Positions 1 to 13,430 of a stretch of 64,000 nucleotides of DNA are shown piece by piece. The translations under genes and the position numbers were made by a program. Source of the stretch: Candidatus Shapirobacteria bacterium (GTDB lineage: Bacteria > Patescibacteriota > Microgenomatia > UBA12405); contig JBAZWK010000001.1 in assembly GCA_041660365.1 (NCBI GenBank), forward strand, positions 1,524 through 65,523, given 5' to 3'. Numbering within the stretch: the first letter of the stretch is position 1; each line of letters begins with the position of its first letter. The notes beneath the pieces were generated by a model that worked only from the letters and a program-made list of their open reading frames with translations, did no database searches and was not told the origin of the DNA.

Positions 1-166
1 CGCCTTCGTTTAATAGCTTCCAAATCTCTTTTTGTTGTTCCTTATTTCCATTGATTAAAACGTGAGTAACGGCCTTGTACATCTCGTCAAAGGTAACCTC
101 TGGTTGTGTTTCCCCTTTCGTGTTTTCTTGTATTATCGACTTTTTTTGTGTTTTCCTTTTCACAAT
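1..166 (-). CDS. Partial hypothetical protein. The ORF runs off the window start, so only its N-terminal ~50 codons are visible, with a possible GTG start at 166
   Basis: An open minus-strand frame from about 166 to 1 has no stop before the window edge. No recognisable motif. Shorter than the ORF-track cutoff. Confidence 0.25.
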   Translation of the reverse strand, partial: MVKRKTQKKSIIQENTKGETQPEVTFDEMYKAVTHVLINGNKEQQKEIWKLLNEG

Positions 167-180
167 TTAAGTTTGATATA

Positions 181-681
181 TTAACTTTGGTTGATCTGTT
201 CAATTGGAAAGATAAATTCATTTAATAGCTTGGTGTATTTTGATTGTAGTTCGGCTGGAATTTGAGGATGAATAAATGGTGAAATGATTCCCTCTTTTTT
301 GACAATATCGCTAGCTTTATCAAAGAAGAAACCCTCAGGAGTTGCGAGAAAAAGATATGACGGTCTCCATGACTCATACATTCTCTTGGCATCAGTAAGA
401 ATTGTACTAGTACTTGGCCTCATTAAATACTTCACTTCAATAAGAAATACATCGTGTGTTTCATTGTTGATGACGGCAAAATCTGGTGCTCGTCGAATAA
501 TTTCCATTGTTTCCTGGGCTTTAATATCATCATGGCGATGAGCTAGTTCTGGAATAATTTGTTCATATCCAAAAGACAAAATAGTGAAACATCCAGCATC
601 ACGGAGCATTTGTTCAAATAGTGTTTCAGCAATTCGACCTTTAACTAAATTCTTTGAGAAATTGATTGGATCATAGTTCAT
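181..681 (-). CDS. Hypothetical protein with a PD-(D/E)xK (Hjc/Mrr-cat-like) nuclease-type core
   Basis: The order 'KGRIAETLFEQ...DFAVIN...DVFLIEVKY' gives the E...D...E-x-K arrangement of restriction-endonuclease-fold nucleases. 166 aa. Confidence 0.45.
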   Translation of the reverse strand: MNYDPINFSKNLVKGRIAETLFEQMLRDAGCFTILSFGYEQIIPELAHRHDDIKAQETMEIIRRAPDFAVINNETHDVFLIEVKYLMRPSTSTILTDAKRMYESWRPSYLFLATPEGFFFDKASDIVKKEGIISPFIHPQIPAELQSKYTKLLNEFIFPIEQINQS

Positions 682-867
682 AAATCCATTATAGCTCAGA
701 CGATTTTTTTGTGGTTTCTAAGTCTTTTTTTTATCTGCTATTTTTGATTGTTCTGTTTCGACCTGTTTGTACTTTTGGTATGCTATTTTGGCTTCCTCTG
801 ATATTTTTTGAGGGGTTTTGCCCTCTGTTGAGATAAGGAACATTAGTCGTTTCATAATTTATTTTAA

Positions 868-1266
868 TTATTTTTGTAAGGCTAAAATACTGTCTAATTT
901 TATCTTCCTGTTAGGTGACTCACCGTATTTATTAGTCTTTTCGTTGCCACTTAAATAAAATAATAAAAATAAAACATATAGCCCATATATTGGAATGTAT
1001 ACCGCTAAACCAAACCAACCATTTTTATCGTGGTCGTGTAGTCTTCTAATTGTCAAAGATAAATAATACACTAACAAGACTACGACTAAGGGTATGCTTA
1101 TAAAATTATAAAAAGGTGAAGTACTGTAATTAGGTATAAAACCTATCGGCACACAAATAAGCATAGGTAGCAAAATACCAACCCAAAAATTACCGACACT
1201 TAATCTCCCCTTAAATAAGTTTGATAGATATTCCATAGTATTATTTACCCTCCTTTGATTTATCAT
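868..1266 (-). CDS. DUF805-family inner-membrane protein
   Basis: Several TM segments plus the conserved 'RRLHDHDKNGWFGL...NKYGE' DUF805 (YhaH-like) signature. Confidence 0.6.
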   Translation of the reverse strand: MINQRRVNNTMEYLSNLFKGRLSVGNFWVGILLPMLICVPIGFIPNYSTSPFYNFISIPLVVVLLVYYLSLTIRRLHDHDKNGWFGLAVYIPIYGLYVLFLLFYLSGNEKTNKYGESPNRKIKLDSILALQK

Positions 1267-1582
1267 TTAACTGGCGATAGGTTAAAACTGATACTAAAAA
1301 GCCAATAAAAGCACTTACATAAGCCATCTTTAAGATAACAGTGTCGCCAAAACCAAACATAACACTAATTATCTGTAAGACAAAATAAGACAAAAACGAC
1401 GCTATAATCCCGACTACCCATGCAATAATAAAGGGCTTGGTTTTATAGTTGGTCAATTTTGTATATATCAACACGGGGATAAAGGGTATTACTACCGTCA
1501 TTAAAAAACCACTCACGCCGATAGCTGTTAATAAGAAAAGGGCGACAAGGCCACTACCTAACGCTATTACTATATTTTTCAT
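1241..1582 (-). CDS. Small integral membrane protein, hypothetical
   Basis: 113 aa with about four hydrophobic helices. Overlaps the downstream gene by 26 nt. Confidence 0.4.
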   Translation of the reverse strand: MKNIVIALGSGLVALFLLTAIGVSGFLMTVVIPFIPVLIYTKLTNYKTKPFIIAWVVGIIASFLSYFVLQIISVMFGFGDTVILKMAYVSAFIGFLVSVLTYRQLNDKSKEGK

Positions 1583-1637
1583 AATTATATTTTTGTTTTA
1601 CCCATTAAACGATTAAAGATATACCAAATAATTCCAC

Positions 1638-1868
1638 CTAACAAAAAGATGACGACAAACTCCATAAACACAAAAAAACGCTTTCCGTTCCTATATATTT
1701 AACTGCGTAACCTCCCGCAAGTATTCCTAAAACAACCCATCTAGGGACTAGTTTTAGTTCATGTTTACTACTACTGGACACTTTTATTGTAATAAAATCT
1801 CTAAGCCATCGACCAAATGAAATATGGCCTTGTTTGGTATTTAATAACATTTTGTCTGTTCTATTCAT
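1638..1868 (-). CDS. Small hypothetical (membrane?) protein. Possibly a degraded ORF
   Basis: 76-aa ORF with a hydrophobic stretch 'VVLGILAGGYAV'. The untranslated gap to the neighbouring gene hints at decay. Confidence 0.25.
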   Translation of the reverse strand: MNRTDKMLLNTKQGHISFGRWLRDFITIKVSSSSKHELKLVPRWVVLGILAGGYAVKYIGTESVFLCLWSLSSSFC

Positions 1869-2520
1869 GTTTATTATTGTCTAATATATTTGTAATTATT
1901 AAATGGACATGCTTATCAAGGAAATCCTTGGGCATACTTATCTTTAGTTGACCAGTTATATTGGTATCATTAATTATCCCACTTACCTTTTTATTGTCTA
2001 TTAAAAAATTTTCCTGGTTAGGATTTGATGCAAAAATTTGTGTTGTTCCGACTAAAAACTTAGCTGCGTTCTTTTTATTCAACTTTTCTCTTGCTCTAAG
2101 AATCGCAGTAATATGAAGTTTGTCTTTTTCGGCCTTTAGATATTCCCCGTATTTTTGATAAAGTTCTTCCATATACTCCTCTGGAGGAAAAAGATGTTTT
2201 GTAGTGAATATAAAAATATCAAGTAATCCCATTGCTAAGAATATTTTATCTTCAGGCGACTTATTGGATCCTTTAATTCCGTTAAGAACATCAATCAATC
2301 CCATAGTCAAAACTTCCTTAGTAATAAATTTATCCAGTTCAAACTTTTTTGGAAACATTTCTTCAACAATACTGCCGTGTTTTGGCCTTTTAGCATACCC
2401 ATAACACTGCCATAAACTATTATCTAATAGTGGATTCATTGCCGTTCCGGCAAGATAATTAATAAGGTCATTTATATCCGTAGTTTTTGCCTTATCCGTG
2501 TTGTTAATTTGTGTAGTCAT
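1861..2520 (-). CDS. Hypothetical protein
   Basis: 219-aa ORF with no recognisable motif. Sits in the accessory region. Confidence 0.4.
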   Translation of the reverse strand: MTTQINNTDKAKTTDINDLINYLAGTAMNPLLDNSLWQCYGYAKRPKHGSIVEEMFPKKFELDKFITKEVLTMGLIDVLNGIKGSNKSPEDKIFLAMGLLDIFIFTTKHLFPPEEYMEELYQKYGEYLKAEKDKLHITAILRAREKLNKKNAAKFLVGTTQIFASNPNQENFLIDNKKVSGIINDTNITGQLKISMPKDFLDKHVHLIITNILDNNKHE

Positions 2521-2640
2521 CTTTTGTTTATCCTCGACTTTATTATTAGTTTTATTAAGTTGATTATATTACTTTTTCAAGCGAACCATTGACCCGGACT
2601 AAAACCTATTTGTATGAATAACTAATACTAATTAATTTAA

Positions 2641-3081
2641 CTAGTACAGAGAAAAATACAAAATTGGAATCGCTAACCAAGGTAAAAATGCAGATATGTA
2701 ATATAAGGCATTTTTTTTCATTAATTTTGGATCGGTTTTTTTATCATGCTTTATATCCCACAATAAATCTGGCAGTCTTCCAAACATAATTATTATTGTC
2801 GCTATTACAACTCCTATATTCCAAATGCGAAATAGTAAATAAAAAAAGGTGATGTTTAATATTAAAGCAATAATAGTAGTTCGTTTTTGTTGATGTATAT
2901 ATTCTTTATCCTTACCTACAATTGTAATAAATTCTGGTGCTTCTTTTTTTATTCTATTAAGTTCTTGTTGTGGAAATAAACCTCTTATAAAAAGACCTAA
3001 AAGATTTACACTTAAAATCATTAAAATAATGCAAAATGCCACAGATATCAAAATATGTGAAATCATAGTTAATAATAACAC
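2641..3081 (-). CDS. Integral membrane protein, hypothetical
   Basis: 146 aa with four predicted TM helices. Confidence 0.4.
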   Translation of the reverse strand: MLLLTMISHILISVAFCIILMILSVNLLGLFIRGLFPQQELNRIKKEAPEFITIVGKDKEYIHQQKRTTIIALILNITFFYLLFRIWNIGVVIATIIIMFGRLPDLLWDIKHDKKTDPKLMKKNALYYISAFLPWLAIPILYFSLY

Positions 3082-3290
3082 TCAGTATTTATTACCTAAT
3101 GGAGTTAACTTGGAACTAGATTAAAAATAAATGGAAACAACCAAAAGATTTATTCTTTAGTATCAATCAAACGAAACTATAAGATTAAAAATCAATTCTA
3201 GTATCCAACAACAATACCCATAAATACCAAGTTTTTAATAGTCTCTTAAGAGGTATAATGTTTTATATTTATCACTTAATAAAATAGAAT

Positions 3291-5096
3291 ATGAAATTAA
3301 ATAATTTTAGAATTCAAAATTATAAATCCATAAAAGATAGTGGAGTTTGTTACTTGTCGGAAAATGACAATATTTTAGTTCTTGCAGGACAAAATGAATC
3401 GGGGAAAAGTTCAATTTTACAAGCTTTAGCAGATTTTTATTCAGGGGAATTGCACCCATATGCAATGAGAAAATTTGATTCCACTACATTTTTTCCTTCA
3501 ATGGATTGTACTTTTAATGTGGATGGAGGCAATTTAGATATTAATCAAATACTAAAAGACTTAGCTTTACCAGAAGAAATGGGTGAATATTTTAGAAAGT
3601 TAGATAAATTTATTATTATTAGAGTTTTTACTTCTCAAACAGAATCTATCTTAAGAGTTGACGATGATACTCATAATGAATTTATTACAGCTATCAAAAA
3701 GATTAATGAAAAAACCAGAAAAAATAAACCCCCATCTAAAACAGAAGGACAGGAGAAGGAAGATGGAGGTGAAGGAATCAATGAAATTAAATTAATAGAT
3801 GAAGAATTATCAAAAGAAGATTTGGGTGATATTTTATTTTCTTATACTACAAAAATAATTTTTTTTGATGACTTGAGAAATTTATTACCAGAAAAAATTT
3901 ATATATCAAGCTTAATCAACAATGAAACTGATGTCGATGGTTATATTGCTGTCAAAAATATTGAAACTATTCTTGGTGAAGATTTTACTAAATTTTCAGA
4001 GCTTGAAGATGGAGTTAGGGAATCACGTCGTGAAACATGTAATAGAACTATTACAGCAGATTTTAATGAAAAGTGGAAACAACAAATATTTAGTGATAGC
4101 AAAACAAAAATATCAATTCAATTTAATCAGGGTGGTCAAAGCGACAAAGGTCCATATCTAAACTTTTTTATTGTAACTAAAGAAAATGAATATCTGATTC
4201 CACAACAAAGAAGCCAAGGCTTTAGATGGTTTCTTTCGTTTTATTTAAGACTAAAAGCAGAAAGTAAAGCCAATGATAAATTAATAATTTTATTCGATGA
4301 ACCAGGACTATTTTTACATTCTAAAGCTCAAAATGATATGAAAAACCTTTTTGAAGAATTAGCCCAAAAAGACCAAATAATATATTCTACTCATTCTCCA
4401 TATCTGATTGATTCAGATCATCTAAACAGGGTTAGGTTAATATTAAATGATAAAAATGATGGTACTAAAATTGAAAAAATAACAGCTAAAATATCTGATA
4501 ATCAACAAGATGCCCTCAAACCTATTGCTGATGCTGTAGGACTGGATATTGCTCATTGTTTTTCACTCATATCTAAAAAAAATGTCATAGTAGAAGGAAT
4601 TTCTGATTTTTATTATTTTGTTGCAATGAAAAAAATATTAGAGATAAACGATGACTTTTCATTTATTCCGTCAGTTGGTGCAACTCAGGTTCATCTTTTG
4701 ATGGAACTATGTATTGGTTGGGGTTTGTCTTGGTTAATTATATTTGATGATGATTCACAATCAAATAATGCCTACCGAAACATTAAGAAAAACTTTTTTG
4801 ATAACAAAGAAAATGATGTAAAAAAGAAAATTTATTTAACAAAAGATATTGATGGTATCGAAAACATGTTTGAGTCAGAAGACTTAAATTTAGTTGATTC
4901 ATCAGCAAATTTTAACAATTCAGAAAAAAATTCAGTACATGTTAAAACTGTTGGTGGTAAAGAATTATATTCTCGGTTATTTTTTGAAAAAGTAAATAGC
5001 GGTGAAATCAAAAAAACACAAATTTCAAGAGAAGCCATTGCTAATTTTCAAAAATCATTCGATTTTATACAAACAAATCTAATTTTGTTAAATTAA
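3291..5096 (+). CDS. OLD-family ATP-dependent endonuclease (N-terminal ABC-type ATPase fused to a C-terminal Toprim). Class-1 OLD / GajA-like
   Basis: N-terminal 'LVLAGQNESGKSSILQAL' is a Walker A. 'LIILFDEPGLFLH' is a Walker B with D-loop and 'STHSP' is the H-loop. The C-terminal Toprim shows 'VIVEGISDFYY' and 'WLIIFDDD' (DxD). A TATAAT -10 box sits at about 3255. Confidence 0.7.
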   Translation: MKLNNFRIQNYKSIKDSGVCYLSENDNILVLAGQNESGKSSILQALADFYSGELHPYAMRKFDSTTFFPSMDCTFNVDGGNLDINQILKDLALPEEMGEYFRKLDKFIIIRVFTSQTESILRVDDDTHNEFITAIKKINEKTRKNKPPSKTEGQEKEDGGEGINEIKLIDEELSKEDLGDILFSYTTKIIFFDDLRNLLPEKIYISSLINNETDVDGYIAVKNIETILGEDFTKFSELEDGVRESRRETCNRTITADFNEKWKQQIFSDSKTKISIQFNQGGQSDKGPYLNFFIVTKENEYLIPQQRSQGFRWFLSFYLRLKAESKANDKLIILFDEPGLFLHSKAQNDMKNLFEELAQKDQIIYSTHSPYLIDSDHLNRVRLILNDKNDGTKIEKITAKISDNQQDALKPIADAVGLDIAHCFSLISKKNVIVEGISDFYYFVAMKKILEINDDFSFIPSVGATQVHLLMELCIGWGLSWLIIFDDDSQSNNAYRNIKKNFFDNKENDVKKKIYLTKDIDGIENMFESEDLNLVDSSANFNNSEKNSVHVKTVGGKELYSRLFFEKVNSGEIKKTQISREAIANFQKSFDFIQTNLILLN

Positions 5097-5311
5097 AACT
5101 TAAACAGTTCCCAAAGTTCAATATTCAATGCTTCAGCTATTCTTGCAATTGTTTTAATTGTCGGTTTTCTTTCTGCCCTCTCAATATACCCAATGAATGC
5201 ACGATTCAAACCAGTATCTAACGCAATATCTTCCTGAGTAAGGTTTTTTTCACCCCTTAGTTTTACAATCTTTTTACCTAAATTTTTATAAATTAGTTCC
5301 GTGTCAATCAC
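5093..5311 (-). CDS. XRE-family helix-turn-helix transcriptional regulator
   Basis: 72 aa. 'LTQEDIALDTGLNRAFIGYIERAERKPTIKTIARIAEAL' is the classic Cro/C1 HTH. Its stop overlaps the OLD gene stop tail-to-tail over 5093-5096. Confidence 0.8.
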   Translation of the reverse strand: MIDTELIYKNLGKKIVKLRGEKNLTQEDIALDTGLNRAFIGYIERAERKPTIKTIARIAEALNIELWELFKF

Positions 5312-5642
5312 AATAGAATTTTCCCTAAATACTGACCCTTGGTCGACTTACTGGTGGTATACTTTGTTCAACATGAAAGATAAACTACTTTCGATTGATA
5401 ACTCTCTTTTGGAATTGGCACGTTTTATTGTTATGTTATTTTTAATAGCTTTAGTTTTTGGAATAGGGTTCATTTTAATGGTTTTTAGTGCATTTAGTGC
5501 AGCTCCAATAATATGGATTTTTATGGGTGGCTTTACTAATACCTGGTTTTTATTTCCTTTTAGTATCCTTAGTATTTATCTATTTAGAGTTTGGATTAAA
5601 ATAAGCCCAAAAATAATAGAAATAATAAACCCAAAAAAATAA
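5301..5642 (+). CDS. Small membrane protein, hypothetical. The start may be the internal Met at 5373
   Basis: Hydrophobic helices 'FIVMLFLIALVFGIGFILMVF' and 'IIWIFMGGF'. Divergent from the XRE gene. Confidence 0.4.
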   Translation: MSITIEFSLNTDPWSTYWWYTLFNMKDKLLSIDNSLLELARFIVMLFLIALVFGIGFILMVFSAFSAAPIIWIFMGGFTNTWFLFPFSILSIYLFRVWIKISPKIIEIINPKK

Positions 5643-5643
5643 A

Positions 5644-6615
5644 ATGAAAAAATTCTTAAAAGTTCTATTTGTTTTAATAATGATTGTGGTTATTTCAATT
5701 GGAGCTTATTTAACTTATAAAGGAATTTCATATGCCAAAACTAAAACCAGTGATTTTATTGTCGATGAGGCAAACATTTTAGATGACAGAACTAAACAAT
5801 ATATCATTAGTATGATTGATGCTGGAGGTTACAAGGGAAAAATTGGTGTTGTGATTACTAAATCAACCAAACCACTAACTATAAAGGAATATGCCACTAA
5901 AATTGATCTTAATTGGGTAATGGAGAAAAACTTTTCAAGAAACGGAGTGATTATTTTTTACGCTGTTGATGACCCTAATTTTTTGGTTCAACATAGTTTA
6001 ACTTCAAATAGTTTAATAAATTTAGATCAGGCACAAAAAATAATTGAAATATCGACATCTTTTATAAGGAACAGTCAAAACAGTGAGGCAATAGTTCAAG
6101 GAGTAAAAGCAACAATAGACTTAGCTTCTGGAAAAGAATTATCTCCAATTCCAACATCAGTTCCCGAGACAACTCCTACTTCTACCTCGACTCCTACAAA
6201 AACAGGTAAACAACCACTTCCTGTATTGAAAGGAAGTAGTATTTTTAGTTTTGTAAATCAATATCGAGCAAGCAAAGGTTTACCTTTTCTCTCAGTATCA
6301 GATGAATTATGTAAACTCGCCGAAAAAAGAGCCGATCTAATGATGGCGAACAATATGGAGGCATTCAAAAAAAGTGGTACTGGCAATCATTATCAATTTG
6401 ATGATGTTCAATATTCAGGTAATGGAGTCGGTGAAAATATAGCAGCTAACTTAGGAAGAGATAAAGATGTAGTTGAGAAATGGAAAACATCACCACCCCA
6501 CAATGAATTAATGCTTTGGACAGAAAAAGAAGGAACTCAAATAACTAAAGGGTGTGTCGCGACTAGAGTGTCAGAGGTCGGATCAATTGTTGTATTATTA
6601 GTTGGAGACAAATAA
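5644..6615 (+). CDS. Secreted or membrane-anchored protein with an N-terminal TPM-like domain and a C-terminal CAP (SCP/PR-1/YkwD-like) domain
   Basis: N-terminal TM/signal. 'DEANILDDRTKQYII...GKIGVVITKS' is TPM-like. A Thr/Pro/Ser linker follows. The C-terminal 'GENIAANLG...VEKWKTSPPHNELML' is the CAP-domain signature. Confidence 0.55.
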   Translation: MKKFLKVLFVLIMIVVISIGAYLTYKGISYAKTKTSDFIVDEANILDDRTKQYIISMIDAGGYKGKIGVVITKSTKPLTIKEYATKIDLNWVMEKNFSRNGVIIFYAVDDPNFLVQHSLTSNSLINLDQAQKIIEISTSFIRNSQNSEAIVQGVKATIDLASGKELSPIPTSVPETTPTSTSTPTKTGKQPLPVLKGSSIFSFVNQYRASKGLPFLSVSDELCKLAEKRADLMMANNMEAFKKSGTGNHYQFDDVQYSGNGVGENIAANLGRDKDVVEKWKTSPPHNELMLWTEKEGTQITKGCVATRVSEVGSIVVLLVGDK

Positions 6616-6627
6616 ATTCAAATAATA

Positions 6628-7086
6628 ATGGGGCAAGATAATGAATATTTAATTAATACGGAAAATATCAAGGTCAGAACCGATTTGGTGGCAAAAATTG
6701 TCATAATTGGAGTTGTTTTATGGATAGTAATGAAATTATTAATTGGCTATTTTGGTAATAATGAGATTGGAAGTTTTTTTGAAAAAAGTAACTACACTAC
6801 TCAATACTGGGTATATCTGCAACCAGAAAATACTCAAACAAAAAATTACAGAATAAAAGCAGATATTCATCATTATGTAGAACCAGGAGATGAAGATTAT
6901 AGTGGTGGAGATAGATATGTTTTGGAAAAAGTTTATTGGGAAAATGGAGGACACTCAGATTTTGATGACTGTGAAATCAGTGATTCTATTTTAAGTAAGA
7001 ATGACAAAAACAATTACACTAACTGTTTTGATGATAATCACAATTACTACAAAATAAGATTGGATGAAAAAGTAAATGAAAAATAA
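6628..7086 (+). CDS. Hypothetical protein with an N-terminal TM anchor
   Basis: 152 aa. TM 'IVIIGVVLWIVMKLLIGYF' followed by a Cys/Asp/Tyr-rich soluble part. Confidence 0.4.
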   Translation: MGQDNEYLINTENIKVRTDLVAKIVIIGVVLWIVMKLLIGYFGNNEIGSFFEKSNYTTQYWVYLQPENTQTKNYRIKADIHHYVEPGDEDYSGGDRYVLEKVYWENGGHSDFDDCEISDSILSKNDKNNYTNCFDDNHNYYKIRLDEKVNEK

Positions 7087-8077
7087 AACAAAAAAAATTT
7101 CCAACAAAATAAAACTAGCAATTCCTCTTGTATTAATTCTTTCAATCTTAATAGTATTCTTTGGCAATAATAGTTCTAATAATTCAAATAGAGGCGTACC
7201 AGAGGCGTTATCAGAGGACCCAGGACGTGCAAACTCGTGTGAAACTGATATTGTTAAGGCCTTCGATAAAAATGGAACATTAAAAGTTTCAAATCAGGTT
7301 CAAAACACAAAATTAAGTTGGAAAGATAAAAAATATGAGACTTTTGTTTTAGACTGCCCAAACGAAGAAGAGTCTTTTAATAAAGTTTTTATTTTGAAAA
7401 ACAGTGAAGGCAAAATAATCTTTTCAATGACAGACGAAAGATTTGATAAAGCCGAAATCAAAGATATTAATAAAGATGACATTGCTGAGTTAGTAGTAGC
7501 TCATGGGAATAGTGGAAATTGTTTCAACTGCCAAGGTCAATCAGTTTTCCAAATAATTAATGACACAGTAAAGGATTTATTATCAAATTTACCAAAATCT
7601 GAAGGTTCAGAACATGCCAATGTTTGGCTATCAGATATTAATAATGATGGGATTGAAGACATAATGCTTAGAGATGATAGTTGGGAAATGCACGAAGGAT
7701 TTTTTCATTCAAATTCACCGAGTCATACTCAAATACTTACTTGGAATAATGGCGAATACCAACAAGGTGGTGAAATGTTTTCAAAATATTATCTCAATCA
7801 AATTAGTGAGAGAAACAAGGAAGTTACAAAACTCTTAAAAAGCAAAAATACTGGATTGAATGACATTGTCAGCTTGGCAATAGAAAATTATTGGGACTCT
7901 CAAGAGATAGGTAGGAACGATGAAGGCTACGCCAATTTTATTCTTCAAACAAATTTAGAAACTCTTCCAAAAACAATCGCAATTAATGACAGTGATAAAA
8001 TCTGGCTTTTGGGAATTAGAAATGAAATCGAGAAAGAATACAAAGAAGCCAGACCAACAATAACACCATTGTATTAA
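7076..8077 (+). CDS. Hypothetical secreted protein
   Basis: 333 aa with an N-terminal signal/TM 'IPLVLILSILIVFF'. No known motif. Overlaps the upstream gene by 11 nt, suggesting an operon. Confidence 0.4.
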   Translation: MKNKTKKISNKIKLAIPLVLILSILIVFFGNNSSNNSNRGVPEALSEDPGRANSCETDIVKAFDKNGTLKVSNQVQNTKLSWKDKKYETFVLDCPNEEESFNKVFILKNSEGKIIFSMTDERFDKAEIKDINKDDIAELVVAHGNSGNCFNCQGQSVFQIINDTVKDLLSNLPKSEGSEHANVWLSDINNDGIEDIMLRDDSWEMHEGFFHSNSPSHTQILTWNNGEYQQGGEMFSKYYLNQISERNKEVTKLLKSKNTGLNDIVSLAIENYWDSQEIGRNDEGYANFILQTNLETLPKTIAINDSDKIWLLGIRNEIEKEYKEARPTITPLY

Positions 8078-8379
8078 GACCCCTCGGTAAAATTTGAAAA
8101 ACGGACTCGGCTAACGATTCTTTAACAATATTTATGAGCAAGCACCCACTTGTAATGGCGTCATTAAAAACCCATCTTTCCATCAAATGTTTACTTTTCG
8201 ATATGATTAAATTAACTACTCAATATCCTGATTATCATCAGCAATAGAGCCATAATCATAATGTAATTTAGAGTTTTATAGTTTATTTTTGTGTTTTTTT
8301 TCATTTTTTTTACGGTTTAAGAGATATTTGAACCCCTCGATATTTTTTTATTTTTTTTAATGGCTTCATGATTTTTTCT

Positions 8380-8474
8380 GGGAGTCACTCCCCCTTTTTT
8401 GAGCTACAGATACGGCTTTGAGTAACCATTGGCTGTAGCTCTCGGAAGCACTTCCTTTTAGTTACACCATCACT
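8380..8474 (+). promoter_or_regulatory. Cluster of three stem-loops in the 430-bp spacer downstream of the primase gene. On the plus strand, GGGAG-tca-CTCCC and GGAAG-ca-CTTCC are each followed by a T-run (terminator-like). Between them is the 9-bp-stem hairpin GAGCTACAG...CTGTAGCTC
   Basis: The palindromes are read directly from the sequence. The T-runs fall on the plus strand. Confidence 0.35.
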
Positions 8475-8510
8475 CCTGAGTTAATGACACAGTGAAAAAG
8501 TCCAGGCATA

Positions 8511-10850
8511 TTATTGAAATATGGCACTTAACTCTGAATCAGACATATCATCAACTGTCTTGTCTAAAACCAAGGGAGGGTTAGTAATAATTTCTGTGCC
8601 TGAGGGAGGGTTTGTGGTTGTTTTTATAAAACTCTCACTAGAGAGACTAGTACTAGATAGTTTTATAGAAATAGGGTCAAACCCTCCAACCCTCCCCAGC
8701 TCTTCAAGAAGTCCTTCGTTGTTTTTAAGCTTAATCCCCTGGTAATGGATCAATCCCCCATTACGTTTTACTTTGTTATGTTTCTCTGTCATCATTTTTC
8801 CAAAGAGCGTGTTGCTTAACATGTCGCGATCCTTTAGTTTTGCATCTTCTGCCCAAGACACATAGTTTTTGTACAGGACTGTTGATTGTGTTAACACACC
8901 TTCAGTTTCTTCACACTCACTGACGATAAAATCGGACAATACGTCGTTCTCAGATTGATATGTTTTGGTTGCTATCTCAACTACTTCAGGTGTTGGGCTT
9001 AGGCCTTCTTTCTGCCATAGTAAGCACCCTTCAATTAACCAGTTTAGAATCCCAGATGATTCTGTTTCTAGTTTAGATACAAGATTTTCATCTTGTTCTT
9101 CTGGTTTGAATATCCGATTAAAACTGATTAGTTTAATTCTTCGCCAAAATCCGAAACTGTTGTCGTCAACACCAGGTAGATGATTGATGAACATCCAAGG
9201 TTTTGCTGTCGGTTTGAAAGTAAAGTTCTCTTGATAAAGATATCGAGCAGTGACATTATCACCGCCAGTCCAAGCCTTTAGTCTTTGTTCGTTAATTCGT
9301 GCAGTGGTCAATGTCTCACTGGATACTAAGAATCGTTTGAACTCTGTCGCTGCTTCATCGTTACTATTACTCGCCTGAAGATTTTTGCGAAAAAGACTAG
9401 CTGGCGCGTCATACGAATAGTCTCCCAATATATTAGAGATGGTCTTGAACATGACGCTTTTTCCGTTTGCACCATTACCATAACAAAAGAATGCGGCCTG
9501 ACTTTTGACACTTCCAGTTATTGAGTAACCCAATGCTTTTTGAACGTATCGAATTAGCTCTTTGTCACCTTGAAATATCTCGTCAAGAAACTGTTCCCAC
9601 CTTGGACAAGGTGCACCTGAATCATAGGTAACACTTGCTTGCATTGTAATTCTGTCTTCTGGTTGTCCATCTCTTAATTTACCAGTGGTTAGGTCAATAA
9701 TCCCATTTTTACACGATAACAACATTTCATTAGAATCCCAGTTTTTACCATCATCAGTTATTGGATGTTGATCTCTTGCAAGGGCAATGGCTGCTTCTAT
9801 CTTTTGCCTACTTTCGCTTTGCATAGCCCATTTTGCTACAGCTTCCTTCTTTTTTGGATTCTCTATTGTTGAGGCTTCTACAAATCGTTTTCTGGCAGCA
9901 TCAATAGCGTATCGGCTTATAGATCCATTATTGTCAGGCTTCCATCTGTGCTGATCCCACACTAACCAACGATTACGTCGATGATCGAACCTTAACTTAT
10001 TTCCAAATAGTTCTGCTATCTTTTCGGCATTACCAGTATCAGTCAGATGTAGTTTCTTCTTTTTCTTTTTTGTTTTATCTGATGGTTCCTGATTAGTAGA
10101 TTCTAGTTTACTGTTTTGAACAAACTCCCAAGCTCTTGAGACATTATAATTAAACTCAGTTTCATCTAAAGGTGGAGTAAAAGTTTGATTCATTCCAAAG
10201 AGGATTCTTTTACCTTCATCATAATTAGTTGAATAGAATTGATGACATGCCCATTGATACAACTTTCCACTTCTCTCACCTTCAGGAATATCTATAAAGT
10301 CTTTGATTACTAATGGGGTATAGTCAGTCGGACTCTTTTTATCTCCTCTAATTAGATTTTCTATGTCCAATGGAAGAGATTCCAACTTATTTATATTTTC
10401 AGTTGGATCACTTAACCACCTTCTATTATTGAAAGGTGGTAATAAAGCATATGAACGATCCCCTTTAATATCAATATGGAGTTCTGGGTTTGAATGACTT
10501 TGAATTCGTCTGTTGTACTTAAAGTAATAGTGTTTGCCACCACTTTGAGAAACAGCTTCTAGTGGAGAATGAAATCCCCATTCAGGTAATCCTTTCTTTA
10601 TACGGTCGTCGTCTACGATCATGACACCAGAAATATCACCAGTGACTACGGCCAGATAATACCCTTTATTTATCCATCTTTCGACGTCTTCAAGAGAGGC
10701 TTTGTTTGTTTGATATTTCTTCCATTTGTATACAGGTTTTTTGTCACCTTTTGAGCTTATTGGAATTATGGACCAGCCCAATTCTATATATTTTTTAGCG
10801 TATTCTAACGCGTTAAATTCTTGGGGTATTTTGTCCATCTTCATCATCAA
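8511..10850 (-). CDS. Primase-helicase of the phage/plasmid P4-alpha/D5 type (N-terminal Prim-Pol domain plus C-terminal SF3 helicase)
   Basis: N-terminal 'GWSIIPISSKGDKKPVYKWKKYQ...YLAVVTGDISGVMIVDDD' is a bifunctional primase/polymerase domain. The C-terminal 'FFCYGNGANGKS' is a Walker A of the D5_N/P4-primase helicase type. Confidence 0.75.
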   Translation of the reverse strand: MMMKMDKIPQEFNALEYAKKYIELGWSIIPISSKGDKKPVYKWKKYQTNKASLEDVERWINKGYYLAVVTGDISGVMIVDDDRIKKGLPEWGFHSPLEAVSQSGGKHYYFKYNRRIQSHSNPELHIDIKGDRSYALLPPFNNRRWLSDPTENINKLESLPLDIENLIRGDKKSPTDYTPLVIKDFIDIPEGERSGKLYQWACHQFYSTNYDEGKRILFGMNQTFTPPLDETEFNYNVSRAWEFVQNSKLESTNQEPSDKTKKKKKKLHLTDTGNAEKIAELFGNKLRFDHRRNRWLVWDQHRWKPDNNGSISRYAIDAARKRFVEASTIENPKKKEAVAKWAMQSESRQKIEAAIALARDQHPITDDGKNWDSNEMLLSCKNGIIDLTTGKLRDGQPEDRITMQASVTYDSGAPCPRWEQFLDEIFQGDKELIRYVQKALGYSITGSVKSQAAFFCYGNGANGKSVMFKTISNILGDYSYDAPASLFRKNLQASNSNDEAATEFKRFLVSSETLTTARINEQRLKAWTGGDNVTARYLYQENFTFKPTAKPWMFINHLPGVDDNSFGFWRRIKLISFNRIFKPEEQDENLVSKLETESSGILNWLIEGCLLWQKEGLSPTPEVVEIATKTYQSENDVLSDFIVSECEETEGVLTQSTVLYKNYVSWAEDAKLKDRDMLSNTLFGKMMTEKHNKVKRNGGLIHYQGIKLKNNEGLLEELGRVGGFDPISIKLSSTSLSSESFIKTTTNPPSGTEIITNPPLVLDKTVDDMSDSELSAIFQ

Positions 10851-11049
10851 TCACTAACTTTCCAGTCATATTATCTATAACTAGAACACCTTTGCCTTTA
10901 CAAACGGGACAAATGGTCTTCCCAAAAGAAACGGTGGTATATCCGTTACAGTTAGGGCATTTTTTTACTGTGAAATTTTCATCAGTCATACAATCAATGT
11001 AATTTATATTCCCAGCTCTATTCGTGGAGTTTCCTGGCTCTCGTATCAA
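10813..11049 (-). CDS. Small zinc-ribbon protein, co-oriented with and overlapping the primase gene
   Basis: 78 aa with 'CPNCNG...CPVCKGKG' (two CxxC knuckles, DnaJ-like CxxCxG spacing). Confidence 0.45.
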   Translation of the reverse strand: MIREPGNSTNRAGNINYIDCMTDENFTVKKCPNCNGYTTVSFGKTICPVCKGKGVLVIDNMTGKLVIDDEDGQNTPRI

Positions 11050-11467
11050 TCTCTCAAAAGAATTTCTTCTTCCTTACTTAATTTTAACAAGTGCAATACG
11101 TGTAGCGCAAGTGTTCTTATAGGATATGTTGCTTTTGTAAACATTGTCTTAAGAATCAATTCATAAAAGGTATTTTGATATGAAATATAGCCAATTGGAA
11201 ATAAATTTACTATATTTTAATTTATTGCGTGTATTACCGTAAAAATAATATAGTTTATGAGTTTATGAAAATTTACTTATGTAGTTATATTGATAGTTCT
11301 GTTAGAATTTTTTTGCTGAATTAGATAATTTTGATTAACATCTTCAAAATGATTAATTTTTATCAACGGAAATTTGTTATATCCTTTGTTTAGGGTAATT
11401 ATCAATTTTACAATTTTATTGTAACTAATTCCAGGGACTTGGGGCGAGTTGGAACCCAGAGGCGATT

Positions 11468-12976
11468 TTGGTAGGAAGTACGAGTGCTTCTTATCAGTGG
11501 ACAATGACGCCATTTGTAAAAAATTATGACTTATTAATTAGTGCTTTGGAAGCAAATGGTTTAGTAAAGAATCAAGATTTTTATGTATGGAATTATGACT
11601 GGCGAAAACCGTTGTCACAAATAGTAAATGATTTTAATGATTTTATAAATGGATTGAATTTACAAAATGGCGAGAAAGTAGATCTTGTGGGTCATAGTTT
11701 GGGTGGTTTATTGGCTCGGGTGTGGACTCAGGATCATCCGGAAATGGTGGGAGAAGTGATTACTTTGGGTAGTCCACATTTTGGGGCGCTTAAGGCATAT
11801 GAGGCTTGGAATGGAGCAAAAATTAGTGATAATTTTGATGTGGCTTCAGTGGCTCTGAACGTTTTGTTACAACTGGAAAAAAAGAACAATAATACTAGTG
11901 TAGAAACATTGAGAAACTACGCTCCGATTGTTTTTGATTTGTCCCCTACTTTTACTTTTTTGAAGAGAAATGGGGTTAATGTTTTAACGAAAAGCAGTCA
12001 GTATTTAAATGATAAAAATAATTCGGTAAATTTAATTAAAGATAAATTGATGACGGTTGATGGTCAGGGAGTATCGACCAAAGAATGGATAAAATTAGGG
12101 GACAGATCGGTGATTGATAAAATTTTAGGAGTATGGGAAGAAGGCCGTCCGACATCGTACTTATATGGAATTGGTGATGGCACCGTATTGAAAAAGAGCG
12201 CCATAATAAGCGGGACCGAGACAATGGAATTTAGTTCTAATCATGGTGATTTGGTTAACAAATCAACAAATTTTGTTTTGGAAAAATTGGGTTTGGGAAC
12301 AACGGTGAAAATAACAGCAGATAATATTCCCTTAAAACAGGCAGTATTTTATTTAGGTTCTCCGGCGAATATGATAGTTAATTGCGGCGGAACAGAAAGA
12401 AGTGAAAATAATGGTTGGGTGATAATGGAAAATCAAGATAGTAAAAATTGTATCGTAAAATTAATGGGTAAAGATGGCGGTGGAACTTATCATTTAGTGA
12501 TTGGTGATAATGACAACTGGAAATATGTGGAAGGGGAAATTGTTGATAGTCAGCAAATTAGTTTAACGGTAAATAGTGAAGATATTTATTGGCAGATGTT
12601 AAAACGTGATTTTCAAAGTTTGGGAATAAACACTTCGACGATTGATAATAAAAACATTTTAACGACGGCTGATATTTATATTAATTTTAGAGCGATCAAT
12701 AAAAATTATAAATTGAGTGAAGAAATAATTGATAATTTGAAAACTATTTTGGCAAAGAAAAGTGTCAGTAGTACAGATTTAAATAGTACCTATAACAAGG
12801 CATTAAGTTCTAAGTCTTTAGTTGATACTAATTTAAGATTAATGGCCAGAAATGGGGTTAATCCCCAGTACTCGGCGGCGATTACTTATGATCAGGCTAA
12901 TAAATTAATGGCTGAAGGAAAAAACTATGCGGCAAATTATTTGGCGTCGAAACTATTTGGAATTGTCTGGAAATAA
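11468..12976 (+). CDS. LCAT/PGAP1-like alpha/beta-hydrolase (lipase/acyltransferase family). Start codon uncertain (TTG at 11468 or ATG at 11504)
   Basis: 'YDWRKP' is the LCAT-family motif. 'VDLVGHSLGGLLAR' is the GxSxG nucleophile elbow. 'GSPHFGA' follows. Confidence 0.6.
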   Translation: MVGSTSASYQWTMTPFVKNYDLLISALEANGLVKNQDFYVWNYDWRKPLSQIVNDFNDFINGLNLQNGEKVDLVGHSLGGLLARVWTQDHPEMVGEVITLGSPHFGALKAYEAWNGAKISDNFDVASVALNVLLQLEKKNNNTSVETLRNYAPIVFDLSPTFTFLKRNGVNVLTKSSQYLNDKNNSVNLIKDKLMTVDGQGVSTKEWIKLGDRSVIDKILGVWEEGRPTSYLYGIGDGTVLKKSAIISGTETMEFSSNHGDLVNKSTNFVLEKLGLGTTVKITADNIPLKQAVFYLGSPANMIVNCGGTERSENNGWVIMENQDSKNCIVKLMGKDGGGTYHLVIGDNDNWKYVEGEIVDSQQISLTVNSEDIYWQMLKRDFQSLGINTSTIDNKNILTTADIYINFRAINKNYKLSEEIIDNLKTILAKKSVSSTDLNSTYNKALSSKSLVDTNLRLMARNGVNPQYSAAITYDQANKLMAEGKNYAANYLASKLFGIVWK

Positions 12977-12992
12977 TTTCTCTAAGTGTTTA

Positions 12993-13262
12993 TTACTCGG
13001 CATCAATAGGAACGTATCCTGGTAATAAATCGTATCTAAATCCATTTGTATTTAAGGAGCCAGTTTTTATTTCACTAAATCCGACTTTTTCTGGGTTTCT
13101 AATAGCTGATTCTGGACAGCCTTCATCAGTTAAAACTTTTGCTAGATCTTGTCTTTTTGAACAATAGTTTTCACCATTTTCGTTGGCTTTAACAAATACA
13201 CATTCATGTTTTTGACATATTTTAAGTATGTCTTGTTCGGACAATTCTGTTTGATTTGCCAT
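12993..13262 (-). CDS. Small hypothetical Cys-containing protein. The start is trimmed to the internal Met because the longer ORF runs into the tRNA gene
   Basis: ORF 12993..13331 overlaps tRNA-Val. The Met at 13262 gives an 89-aa product 'MANQTELSEQDILKICQKHECVF...'. Confidence 0.35.
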   Translation of the reverse strand: MANQTELSEQDILKICQKHECVFVKANENGENYCSKRQDLAKVLTDEGCPESAIRNPEKVGFSEIKTGSLNTNGFRYDLLPGYVPIDAE

Positions 13263-13295
13263 ATTAAGTTGATAATAACATTTTTTTAAAAAATG

Positions 13296-13369
13296 TGGTT
13301 GTTGCGGGACTTGAACCTGCGACCTCATCAATGTGAATGATGCGCTCTAACCAACTGAGCTAAACAACC
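13296..13369 (-). tRNA. tRNA-Val (anticodon CAC)
   Basis: Reverse complement reads GGTTGTT-T-AGCTCAGTTGGTTAGAGC-G-CATCA-TTCACAT-TGATG-AGGTC-GCAGGTTCAAGTCCCGC-AACAACC-A. It has a 7-bp acceptor stem, a D-arm, an anticodon loop 'TT CAC AT', a T-arm GGTTCAAGTCC and discriminator A. No CCA is encoded. One A-C mismatch in the T-stem. Confidence 0.8.
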
Positions 13370-13382
13370 AGATTGTTAATGA

Positions 13383-13430
13383 ATGCTCTACCAACTGACC
13401 TGCCTGCCGGCGGGCAGGGCTAAACAACCA
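13383..13430 (-). repeat. Degenerate partial copy of the tRNA-Val 5' half (acceptor 5' strand plus D-arm), interrupted by a 16-nt GC palindrome (cctgccggcgggcagg). Lies immediately 5' of the tRNA gene
   Basis: 13419-13430 'gctaaacaacca' is identical to 13358-13369. 13383-13400 'atgctctaccaactgacc' matches 13343-13360 'gcgctctaaccaactgagc'. A GC-rich palindrome sits between them. Confidence 0.5.

What the first reader, a model, noticed from the sequence alone, without database searches (positions are those of the whole stretch)
1..13369. AT-richer accessory region ending at tRNA-Val, carrying defence and replication genes but no visible integrase
Bases 1-13.3 kb are visibly more A/T-rich than the rest of the window. 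They encode a typical mobile/defence repertoire: an OLD-family nuclease, an XRE repressor, a P4/D5-type primase-helicase with a Zn-ribbon partner, a PD-(D/E)xK nuclease-like protein, DUF805 and other small membrane proteins, a secreted TPM-CAP protein and an LCAT-like lipase. The block ends within ~30 bp of the 3' end of a tRNA-Val gene, the classic target side for integrative elements. No integrase or recombinase lies within the window, and a partial ORF runs off the 5' edge. The element is therefore either larger than the window or degraded.
Basis: partly seen in the sequence, partly recalled or inferred. Interest (0 to 1): 0.6.

Follow-up and report, generated by a model that had tools for sequence, protein, structure and literature searches.

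The report
Defence island splitting a lipase gene
An 11.4-kb block of foreign DNA carrying an anti-phage nuclease and its own replication gene sits in a tiny groundwater bacterium (Candidatus Shapirobacteria), but it ends inside a conserved lipase-like gene and not at the tRNA-Val gene, so it is a fairly ordinary mobile defence island with a mislocated boundary.

Summary
The boundary and the tRNA interpretation are wrong.

In the closest genome (Ca. Shapirobacteria L007), the LCAT-like gene, tRNA-Val and G6PD are adjacent in the same order. The segment 11.43-13.37 kb is therefore core, and its GC and GC skew are core-like. The window's LCAT-like copy lacks its first ~230 codons. Homology starts at GLGASWN (about 11,432, possibly 11,389).

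The accessory DNA spans 1 to ~11.4 kb and abuts a truncated conserved gene 1.9 kb from the tRNA. No copy of the tRNA 3' end exists in the window.

Low GC is confined to 880-7085 (0.296 against 0.352). This is a cargo bay that a close relative (L032) fills with different defence genes between 86-91% identical flanks.

Two related elements carry a large serine recombinase at their edge. Here none is seen: the source contig ends at most 2 kb upstream of the window.

Verdict: a mobile-element-derived defence island, probably moved by a serine recombinase. It is a new member of a known kind.

The parts
1..163 (-). First 54 codons of a 205-aa orphan protein (NCBI MFA6007019.1, WC784_00015) that runs off the window. 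It is a conserved end-of-cargo gene.
   Evidence: L001 is 100% identical and extends 284 nt further. The full-length protein is P0008, on a 66,034-nt contig. It has no Pfam, PHROG or PADLOC hit. An AF2 model (pLDDT 71) has no PDB fold match. Homologues end defence cassettes in L021, L026, L027/28 and L032.
181..681 (-). 166-aa PD-(D/E)xK nuclease-like protein, TnsA-N-like. It is a backbone gene.
   Evidence: It has no direct Pfham hit. It has 368 representative homologues. K14, G15, E19, E40, P66-D67 and V83-K84 are conserved. 31 of 57 homologues hit PF08722 Tn7_TnsA-like_N, best E 4.5e-6. It is 93% identical in L032, L033 and L035.
880..7085 (.). Variable cargo bay, GC 0.296. Contents: DUF805 (868-1266 -); small membrane or unknown ORFs (1241-1582, 1638-1868, 1861-2520, 2641-3081 -); OLD; XRE; a 113-aa membrane ORF (5301-5642 +); TPM-CAP (5644-6615 +); a 152-aa ORF (6628-7086 +).
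   Evidence: DNA identity to L032 is 86% for window 3-879 and 91% for 7086-7267. The 6.2 kb between is replaced in L032 by XRE + SMC-like ATPase + HpaII restriction-modification genes.
3291..5096 (+). OLD-family ATPase-TOPRIM nuclease, stand-alone (class 1-like). It is the recognisable anti-phage effector.
   Evidence: Pfam AAA_15 3.6e-24 and OLD-like_TOPRIM 5.8e-5. PADLOC Old 4.8e-27 and AriA 4e-26. The best PDB sequence match is 6P74, an OLD-family endonuclease, at 2e-13. No UvrD or reverse-transcriptase partner lies next to it.
5093..5311 (-). XRE / C-protein-like HTH regulator, convergent with OLD.
   Evidence: Pfam HTH_3 1.7e-12. PADLOC 'control protein' 1.3e-13. It is 41% identical to the XREs of L021 and L026.
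7076..8077 (+). 333-aa backbone protein with an N-terminal hydrophobic segment, convergent with the primase.
   Evidence: It is 40% identical to the 343-aa gene in the same position in L021, which has weak FG-GAP hits. It is 90% identical to the partial gene at the start of L032.
8368..8506 (-). Conserved non-coding element directly 3' of the primase-helicase gene: three hairpins followed by an A-rich tract. It is a candidate origin of replication or a structured RNA.
   Evidence: The core is almost invariant between the window and L021, whereas the flanking coding DNA is 63-76% identical. GC is 0.44. There is no Rfam match. The folding z-score is -1.95. In SaPI and SCCmec, the origin lies directly downstream of the homologous helicase gene (PMC7581432).
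8511..10850 (-). PrimPol (AEP) - D5_N - SF3 helicase - Pox_D5 primase-helicase ('P4 family'). It is the replication module.
   Evidence: Pfam D5_N 4e-32, Prim-Pol 9e-12, DUF5906 9e-10 and Pox_D5 1e-5. PHROG DNA primase 1.5e-125. P0013 is the exact match, 775 aa, named 'phage/plasmid primase, P4 family'.
10813..11049 (-). 78-aa CxxC...CxxC zinc-ribbon ORF overlapping the primase start.
   Evidence: Only weak, sub-threshold Pfam Zn-ribbon and DnaJ_CXXCXGXG hits. The Cys pairs are visible in the translation.
11050..11431 (.). AT-rich (GC 0.24) non-coding leader of the element plus the right-hand junction. The stretch 11389-11431 may be a decayed stub of the LCAT-like gene.
   Evidence: Stop codons occur in all frames, and a TAA lies 2 codons before GLGASWN. 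A local DNA alignment to L007 reaches 11389 with net +4 indels.
11432..12976 (+). 5'-truncated LCAT-like alpha/beta hydrolase. It is a core gene, not part of the island. It lacks the signal peptide, the N-terminal domain and the strand before GLGASWN.
   Evidence: It is 62% identical to residues 233-745 of the L007 protein. Full-length orthologues in the library are mostly 741-763 aa. Its skew (+0.37) and GC are core-like.
12993..13262 (-). 89-aa orphan ORF in a ~320-bp spacer between the LCAT stop codon and the tRNA 3' end. L007 has no such spacer.
   Evidence: In L007 the LCAT stop is 3 nt from the tRNA. The ORF occurs only in contigs of the same organism. It has no Pfam hit.
13295..13369 (-). 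tRNA-Val(CAC). It is a core gene and not the attachment site of this island.
   Evidence: ARAGORN and Rfam, 68 bits. It occupies the same position in L007. Its 3' end is not repeated in the window.
13370..13429 (-). 60-nt tRNA 5'-half-like fragment interrupted by a 20-nt GC-rich palindrome, directly upstream of tRNA-Val.
   Evidence: It is present in the independent contig L039 and absent from L007, L016, L006 and L005.

Best explanation
Bases 1 to ~11.4 kb are the visible part of a horizontally acquired integrative element in a Candidatus Shapirobacteria (Patescibacteria) chromosome. The element continues past the window start.

Backbone, read on the minus strand: Zn-ribbon ORF; PrimPol-D5 primase-helicase; a conserved hairpin-rich non-coding element (inferred origin); a convergent 333-aa protein; a cargo bay opened by an XRE regulator; a TnsA-like PD-(D/E)xK protein; a 205-aa orphan protein.

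In this copy the cargo bay (880-7085) holds a stand-alone OLD nuclease plus membrane and secreted proteins. Closely related copies hold other defence genes.

The right end of the element abuts a conserved LCAT-like hydrolase gene whose first ~230 codons are missing. The insertion, or an associated deletion, therefore hit that gene, 1.9 kb from tRNA-Val. The tRNA is only a neighbour.

Shown: gene content, foreign composition, absence from relatives, junction position, cargo swapping.

Inferred:
- The element moves by a large serine recombinase encoded beyond the window. This rests on two related elements that have one at their edge.
- It replicates after excision from the conserved element downstream of the primase gene.
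- OLD provides anti-phage defence under XRE control.
For: Synteny:
- L007 has GT1(-), LCAT-like (745 aa, +), tRNA-Val(-), G6PD, signal peptidase, ParB, L27, L21, RodA and IleRS in the window's order. Protein identities are about 60-90%.
- L006 and L016 keep the block tRNA-Gly/tRNA-Thr/240 aa/Wzy/GT2, and L016, L005 and L007 also keep the GT1 gene. L006, L007 and L016 keep the LCAT-like gene. The glycosyltransferase and Wzy genes have only weak paralogue-level hits in the window, far from this locus.

Truncation:
- The alignment starts at GLGASWN, and a stop codon lies just upstream.
- Orthologues are about 745 aa.

Foreignness:
- Island ORFs differ from 46 core ORFs in GC, GC3, CAI and plus-strand skew.
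- Five of the six island minus-strand genes have negative plus-strand skew. The 39 core minus-strand genes average +0.19, with a minimum of -0.008.

Mobile family:
- L021 shares the primase (52%), the 333-aa protein (40%), XRE (41%) and the 205-aa protein (76%) in the same order, and it ends in a Resolvase + Recombinase + Zn_ribbon_recom gene.
- In the P0019 element (primase 50% identical), the gene nearest the divergence point is a serine recombinase. Its 3' end reaches the tRNA-Gln gene in L041, L042 and L044. The identical element sits in a different right-hand context in L040.

Cargo swap relative to L032.

Origin analogy: PMC7581432.
Against: - No recombinase was found for this copy.
- The closest relatives of the end module (L032-L035, 91-93% identical) do not have a serine recombinase right after the 205-aa gene.
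- The 205-aa gene is the third gene of the 66,034-nt source contig, so at most ~1.6 kb and two genes lie upstream.
- A chimeric query found nothing on a 66,034-nt contig. It combined the L007 LCAT N-terminus, the L035 downstream ORF and the L021 recombinase N-terminus.
- The left junction and the missing LCAT 5' part were not seen. Simple insertion therefore cannot be told apart from insertion plus deletion.
- No independent assembly spans the 11.4-kb junction.
- Backbone GC (0.34-0.35) equals host GC, so composition alone does not mark the backbone as foreign.
Confidence: 0.62

Rival explanations
1. One reading: a tRNA-Val-targeted island spanning 1-13,369, with its integrase and the distal att repeat beyond the window.
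For: The tRNA 3' end faces the block. A ~320-bp spacer with an orphan ORF lies at the tRNA 3' end and is absent from L007. A tRNA 5'-half fragment lies just upstream. These hint at old recombination at this tRNA. A related primase element does sit at a tRNA-Gln 3' end.
Against: The LCAT-like gene between the island and the tRNA is syntenic with tRNA-Val in L007, is core-like in GC and skew, and is 5'-truncated exactly where the foreign DNA starts. There is no repeat of the tRNA 3' end in 64 kb.
Confidence: 0.06
2. An assembly chimera: the metagenomic contig wrongly joins an element or plasmid contig to the chromosome near 11.4 kb.
For: None of the independent contigs recovered crosses 11.0-11.5 kb. 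The region 11050-11389 is very AT-rich (GC 0.24).
Against: The LCAT-like gene is broken at that point, and its missing 5' part and upstream neighbours are nowhere else in the window. The 45 nt before GLGASWN look like a decayed stub with indels and a stop codon, which a chimeric join would not create. The contig is held with the same length by both NCBI and JGI.
Confidence: 0.07
3. An immobile remnant or lineage-specific variable region. An old element lost its recombinase and is now a fixed defence islet whose cargo turns over by homologous recombination between conserved flanks.
For: No recombinase is visible. Close relatives of the end module lack an adjacent serine recombinase. Cargo replacement between 86-91% identical flanks fits flank-mediated exchange. 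In L026 and L027, the homologous 200-aa gene is followed by housekeeping-type genes.
Against: The primase-helicase ORF is intact at 779 aa. The downstream non-coding element is conserved. The strand skew has not been brought into line with the chromosome. These argue for a recent, still functional replicon.
Confidence: 0.22

Closest known systems
SCC / SCCmec elements of staphylococci
   Same: Cargo islands, including anti-phage defences, that insert at a protein-coding gene. They carry a D5_N/Primase_Cterm-type initiator helicase with a conserved origin sequence directly downstream of its gene, and they are moved by large serine recombinases (PMC7581432; PMC11470126 title and abstract). Here there is a D5_N helicase, a conserved element right after its stop codon, defence cargo, a junction in a coding gene, and serine recombinases in two related elements.
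   Different: No recombinase was found in this copy. The primase here is an AEP PrimPol fused to the helicase. The target is an LCAT-like gene, which is truncated rather than preserved. The host phylum is different. There is no sequence relationship beyond shared domains.
Tycheposons of Prochlorococcus
   Same: Integrative elements of streamlined genomes that combine a site-specific recombinase (mostly tyrosine, a few large serine), a primase/helicase replication module and swappable cargo, and that build islands (bioRxiv 10.1101/2020.12.28.424599).
   Different: Tycheposons sit next to tRNA genes and leave partial tRNA repeats. This island does not abut the tRNA and has no such repeat.
P4-like satellites and PICIs, and the P2 Old locus
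   Same: A P4-family primase-helicase, an XRE-type regulator, a size of about 10-15 kb, and a hotspot with interchangeable defence genes. OLD was first known as a prophage P2 gene (my own knowledge; the PADLOC 'Old' hit is).
   Different: There is no tyrosine integrase, no tRNA att site, and no capsid-redirecting or packaging genes. No close relative was found in the scans of the IMG/VR viral contigs: only three distant primase hits at 32-33% identity, and nothing for the end-module protein, the L021 recombinase, the 333-aa protein or the conserved non-coding motif.
Class 1 OLD nucleases (e.g. PDB 6P74)
   Same: An N-terminal ABC-type ATPase plus a C-terminal TOPRIM domain in a single gene.
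   Different: Only 53 bits to 6P74 over the TOPRIM half. Activity and defence function are untested.

Membership tests
tRNA-targeted integrative island (tyrosine-integrase type) | The island boundary coincides with the 3' part of a tRNA gene | tested here: not met
   The junction is at 11.39-11.43 kb, 1.9 kb from tRNA-Val. The LCAT-like gene in between is syntenic with the tRNA in L007.
tRNA-targeted integrative island (tyrosine-integrase type) | A direct repeat of the tRNA 3' segment at the distal end | tested here: not met
   There is no second match to the 29-nt tRNA 3' end with up to 3 mismatches in 64 kb, and no such repeat family was reported. The distal end lies outside the window.
tRNA-targeted integrative island (tyrosine-integrase type) | An integrase gene next to the att site | tested here: not met
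   No recombinase domain was found in any ORF of the window.
Horizontally acquired genomic island (generic) | Absent from the syntenic position in related genomes, with atypical composition | tested here: met
   No island ORF was found in L005-L017. GC, GC3, CAI and skew differ from the core. This holds for 1-11.4 kb only.
Element mobilised by a large serine recombinase (SCC-, PLE- or phage-like) | A large serine recombinase gene at one end of the element | not testable with these tools
   The end lies off the window, and only 284 further nt were recovered. A recombinase is present in the related L021 and in L040-L044. It was not detected on the 66,034-nt source contig.
Element mobilised by a large serine recombinase (SCC-, PLE- or phage-like) | Two att junctions without long direct repeats, and an empty site in relatives | tested here: inconclusive
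   One junction was located, inside a gene that is uninterrupted in L007, L006 and L016. The second junction was not seen.
P4-family primase-helicase replicon | AEP primase + D5_N + SF3 helicase + C-terminal Pox_D5 domain in one protein | tested here: met
   All four Pfam domains score above their cut-offs. PHROG DNA primase families match at up to 1.5e-125.
P4-family primase-helicase replicon | A cognate origin near the gene | tested here: inconclusive
   A conserved ~130-nt non-coding element lies directly 3' of the gene. There are only two copies, so there is no covariation and no binding data.
OLD-family nuclease, class 1 | ABC ATPase + TOPRIM in one polypeptide, with no UvrD or reverse-transcriptase partner | tested here: met
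   The neighbouring genes are XRE and membrane ORFs.
PD-(D/E)xK nuclease superfamily (166-aa ORF) | A conserved D...(D/E)xK motif and homology to a known PD-(D/E)xK family | tested here: met
   P66-D67 and V83-K84 are at least 90% conserved, and E82 is the consensus residue. 31 of 57 homologues hit Tn7_TnsA-like_N. The window protein itself has no direct hit, and its AF2 model is unusable at pLDDT 47.

The most novel reading that the evidence does not exclude
The window holds one copy of an undescribed family of self-replicating defence-cargo elements of Patescibacteria that are moved by serine recombinases. The fixed backbone would be: Zn-ribbon/primase-helicase; a nearly invariant structured element after the primase gene (origin or RNA); a secreted 333-aa protein; a cargo bay gated by XRE; and a TnsA-like nuclease plus a 205-aa protein with no detectable sequence or PDB-fold relatives. 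The last pair could be a cargo-exchange or mobility module rather than passengers. A related possibility is that excision restores the interrupted LCAT-like gene, as in a gene-interrupting 'regulatory switch'.
Probability: 0.3. Interest if true: 0.55.

Novelty: new member of a known kind. Interest (0 to 1): 0.36.

Why it matters
Patescibacteria have tiny genomes, few known mobile elements and little CRISPR. How they acquire and exchange defence genes is therefore of interest. Genomic islands enriched in defence genes have been reported for them in bulk (PMC12455944), but the vehicles are poorly described.

This locus, together with L021, L032 and L040-L044, shows a concrete vehicle: a primase-helicase backbone with a hot-swappable cargo bay, associated in relatives with large serine recombinases. 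For this window the practical lesson is narrower. The island is real, but proximity to a tRNA was coincidental. The true junction is in a conserved gene, which fits a serine recombinase better than a tRNA-targeting tyrosine integrase.

Tried and rejected
- att search. Direct and inverted repeats in 1-16 kb and a 3-mismatch search for the tRNA 3' end found nothing meaningful.
- Extending the contig. Exact-protein look-ups never returned the 66-kb source contig; only short contigs came back. The metagenome scan with the 205-aa protein gave two short contigs. The net gain was 284 nt.
- Testing for a recombinase or the LCAT 5' fragment on the source contig, using a chimeric query and the contig-length column. 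No hit was on a 66,034-nt contig. This is inconclusive, not negative.
- Viral origin. Five IMG/VR scans found only three distant primase hits at 32-33% identity. PHROGs hit only the primase, OLD and CAP. I rejected 'prophage'.
- Function of the 205-aa protein. There is no family hit. The AF2 model has pLDDT 71, and no PDB match has E below 0.1.
- The single-sequence AF2 model of the 166-aa protein had pLDDT 47 and was not used.
- Conserved non-coding element. There is no Rfam hit. A covariance model finds no further copy in 19 sources. With two sequences there is no covariation.
- Tandem repeats or iterons in 1-13.5 kb: only trivial A/T-rich repeats.

Full report
**Organism and setting.** The window is a chromosome segment of a Patescibacteria (CPR) bacterium. 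The primase and the 5'-edge protein match proteins of an NCBI/JGI MAG named Candidatus Shapirobacteria, on a 66,034-nt contig. From 13.4 to 64 kb the window encodes G6PD, signal peptidase, ParB, L27, L21, RodA, IleRS, FtsZ/FtsA/MurG/FtsW, Mur ligases, a PBP, MraW, RecO, a large glycosyltransferase/Wzy cluster, MetK and sugar-nucleotide enzymes. None of these ORFs carries a recombinase domain.

**Checking the observation.** tRNA-Val(CAC) is at 13295-13369 on the minus strand, with its 3' end facing lower coordinates.
- OLD: AAA_15 + OLD TOPRIM. The best PADLOC model is 'Old', and the best PDB sequence is the OLD endonuclease 6P74.
- XRE.
- PrimPol + D5_N + DUF5906 + Pox_D5 primase-helicase.
- A small CxxC zinc-ribbon ORF overlapping the primase start.
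- DUF805, TPM + CAP, and the LCAT-like hydrolase.
- The 'PD-(D/E)xK-like' 166-aa ORF has no direct Pfam hit. In an alignment of 57 homologues, P66-D67 and V83-K84 are at least 90% conserved, with E82 as the consensus residue. 31 of the 57 hit Tn7_TnsA-like_N.

The A/T-richness claim is only partly right. GC is 0.296 in 880-7085, 0.340 in 1-879, 0.349 in 7086-11389 and 0.343 in 11390-13369. The rest of the window is 0.352.

**Where the accessory DNA really ends.** A scan of species-representative genomes with the G6PD protein returned five syntenic loci.
- In the closest one (L007, Ca. Shapirobacteria), the order is GT1(-), LCAT-like(+), tRNA-Val(-), G6PD(+), signal peptidase, ParB, L27, L21, RodA, IleRS, as in the window. 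Protein identities are about 60-90%.
- The LCAT-like gene is therefore a conserved neighbour of tRNA-Val. Homologues of it also lie upstream of G6PD in L006 and L016.
- The L007 protein is 745 aa, and the other orthologues in the protein library are mostly 741-763 aa. The window ORF is 502 aa.
- The protein alignment starts exactly at the motif GLGASWN, near window 11432. A TAA lies two codons upstream, and stops occur in all frames before that.
- A DNA alignment suggests a decayed stub back to about 11389, with net +4 indels.
- Upstream of the LCAT-like gene, the relatives have a conserved block: tRNA-Gly, tRNA-Thr, a 240-aa gene, Wzy-like, GT2 and GT1. The GT and Wzy genes have only weak, paralogue-level hits in the window, far from this locus.
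- None of the ORFs between 181 and 11049 has a counterpart in any of these loci.

The foreign DNA thus spans 1 to ~11.4 kb. Its right junction lies inside the LCAT-like gene, 1.9 kb from the tRNA.

GC skew gives independent support. It is -0.007 for 1-11430, +0.28 for 11431-13369 and +0.21 for the core. No 11.4-kb core window is below +0.15.

Gene by gene, the island ORFs differ from 46 core ORFs in GC (p = 0.0013), GC3 (0.0063), CAI (7e-5) and plus-strand skew (5e-4). Five of the six island genes on the minus strand have negative plus-strand skew. The 39 core minus-strand genes average +0.19, with a minimum of -0.008. A 29-nt probe for the tRNA 3' end has no second match with up to 3 mismatches.

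**What the element is.** Look-ups of the edge protein and its relatives gave contigs that share the backbone.
- L021 (a 14-kb contig) has, in the same order and orientation as the window read on the minus strand: the primase-helicase (52% identical), a convergent 343-aa gene (40%), XRE (41%), a run of cargo genes including a UvrD helicase, the ~204-aa protein (76%), and then a bona fide large serine recombinase (Resolvase + Recombinase + Zn_ribbon_recom) at the contig end.
- L032 is 86% identical in DNA to window 3-879 and 91% identical to window 7086-7267. Between these flanks it carries XRE + a 1007-aa SMC-like ATPase + an HpaII-type restriction-modification pair, instead of the window's 6.2 kb.
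- L026 (Dcm + Vsr) and L027/L028 (OLD-like + HsdR) likewise place the ~200-aa gene at the end of a defence cassette; in L026 the cassette is visibly led by an XRE gene.
- Window 880-7085 is therefore a cargo bay in a conserved backbone. This bay is also the AT-rich part.

A second family member, with primase P0019 (50% identical, same domain architecture), was recovered in about two dozen contigs.
- The gene nearest the point where the contexts diverge is a 580-aa serine recombinase.
- L040 and L042 are identical up to residue 568 of that gene and then diverge.
- In L041, L042 and L044 the next feature is tRNA-Gln(TTG), whose last 6 nt fall within the shared sequence. In L040 the context is entirely different.

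This shows mobility and a link between this primase lineage and serine recombinases. It also shows that tRNA targets occur in the wider family, though not in this window.

**Replication module.** Immediately 3' of the primase stop codon lies a ~130-nt non-coding stretch (8368-8506, minus sense).
- Its core is almost invariant between the window and L021, although the neighbouring coding DNA is only 63-76% identical.
- It forms three hairpins followed by an A-rich tract, and its GC is 0.44.
- It has no Rfam match.
- In SaPIs and SCCmec, the origin lies directly downstream of the homologous D5_N-type helicase gene and is bound by that helicase (PMC7581432).
- I therefore infer that this is the element's origin. 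A structured RNA is the alternative. With two copies, no covariation test is possible.

**Mechanism proposed.**
- Shown: a foreign, mobile-element-type block with an intact replication gene and a swappable defence bay abuts a truncated core gene.
- Inferred, moderate confidence: a site-specific serine recombinase encoded past the 205-aa gene integrates and excises the element. Serine recombinases need no long repeats and often target coding genes, which fits the junction.
- Inferred: after excision, the primase-helicase fires the adjacent origin.
- Inferred from family knowledge: OLD, an ATP-dependent TOPRIM nuclease, restricts phage DNA, and the convergent XRE/C-protein-like regulator controls the bay.

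**Limits.**
- No recombinase was found for this copy.
- The source contig has only two more genes, and at most ~1.6 kb, upstream of the window.
- The closest relatives of the end module lack an adjacent recombinase.
- A chimeric query found neither a recombinase, nor the LCAT 5' fragment, nor the L035 neighbour on a 66,034-nt contig.
- No independent contig crosses the 11.4-kb junction, so a chimeric assembly is not formally excluded. The decayed stub and the absence of the LCAT 5' part argue against it.

**Comparison with known systems.** It works most like the following:
- SCC elements: serine recombinase, D5_N helicase with a downstream origin, defence cargo, insertion at a coding gene.
- Tycheposons: recombinase + replication module + cargo in streamlined genomes.
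- P4-like satellites and PICIs: P4-type primase, defence hotspots.

It fails the defining tests of a tRNA-targeted island. Membership of the recombinase-borne class cannot be tested without the missing end.

**Verdict.** The island is real, but it is shorter than claimed and is not anchored at the tRNA. I rate it a new member of a known kind, with modest interest (0.36). The conserved backbone, the origin-like element and the orphan end module are the parts worth following up.

Noticed in passing
window 13370-13429 (minus sense), directly 5' of tRNA-Val: A 60-nt insertion that looks like the 5' half of a tRNA (acceptor, D arm, anticodon arm). A 20-nt GC-rich palindrome, CCTGCCCGCCGGCAGGCAGG, splits its D stem. 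It is present in the independent contig L039 and absent from L007, L016, L006 and L005. Its D and anticodon stems resemble L007's tRNA-Val more than the intact window tRNA. It may be a scar of an older recombination event at this tRNA.
   Followed up: partly
window 12977-13294: A ~320-bp spacer with an 89-aa orphan ORF (12993-13262, minus) lies between the LCAT stop codon and the tRNA-Val 3' end. In L007 these two features are 3 nt apart. The ORF was found only in contigs of the same organism.
   Followed up: partly
window 8368-8506 and L021 1375-1515: A hairpin-rich non-coding element right after the primase-helicase stop codon is almost invariant between two elements whose coding DNA is only 63-76% identical. 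It has no Rfam family, and no further copy was found in 19 sources.
   Followed up: partly
window 1-163 plus L001 2494-2940; relatives P0001-P0012: A ~205-aa protein family has no Pfam, PHROG or PADLOC hit and no PDB fold match. It recurs at the downstream end of defence cassettes of differing content, and in L021 it lies directly before a large serine recombinase.
   Followed up: partly
L040 vs L041/L042/L044, around locus position 14,528: Identical elements (primase P0019) diverge 12 codons before the end of a 580-aa serine recombinase gene. One context continues into tRNA-Gln(TTG), and the other into a 94-aa ORF and a 3577-aa Peptidase_S8/cadherin-repeat giant protein. The recombinase C-terminus therefore differs between contexts.
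   Followed up: partly
window 13.4-64 kb: 39 of 46 core ORFs are on the minus strand, yet the plus strand is G-rich throughout (skew about +0.2). Most genes therefore have C-rich coding strands, which is an unusual relation between gene orientation and GC skew.
   Followed up: no
L005, L006, L016 vs window and L007: tRNA-Val(CAC) lies downstream of G6PD (between G6PD and signal peptidase) in three relatives, but upstream of G6PD in the window and in L007. The tRNA gene has moved across G6PD within this group.
   Followed up: no
window 11432-12976: The truncated LCAT-like ORF is still open for 502 codons and has an AGAGG motif 5 nt before its TTG start at 11468. It may still be expressed as a protein without a signal peptide rather than being a dead pseudogene.
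   Followed up: no
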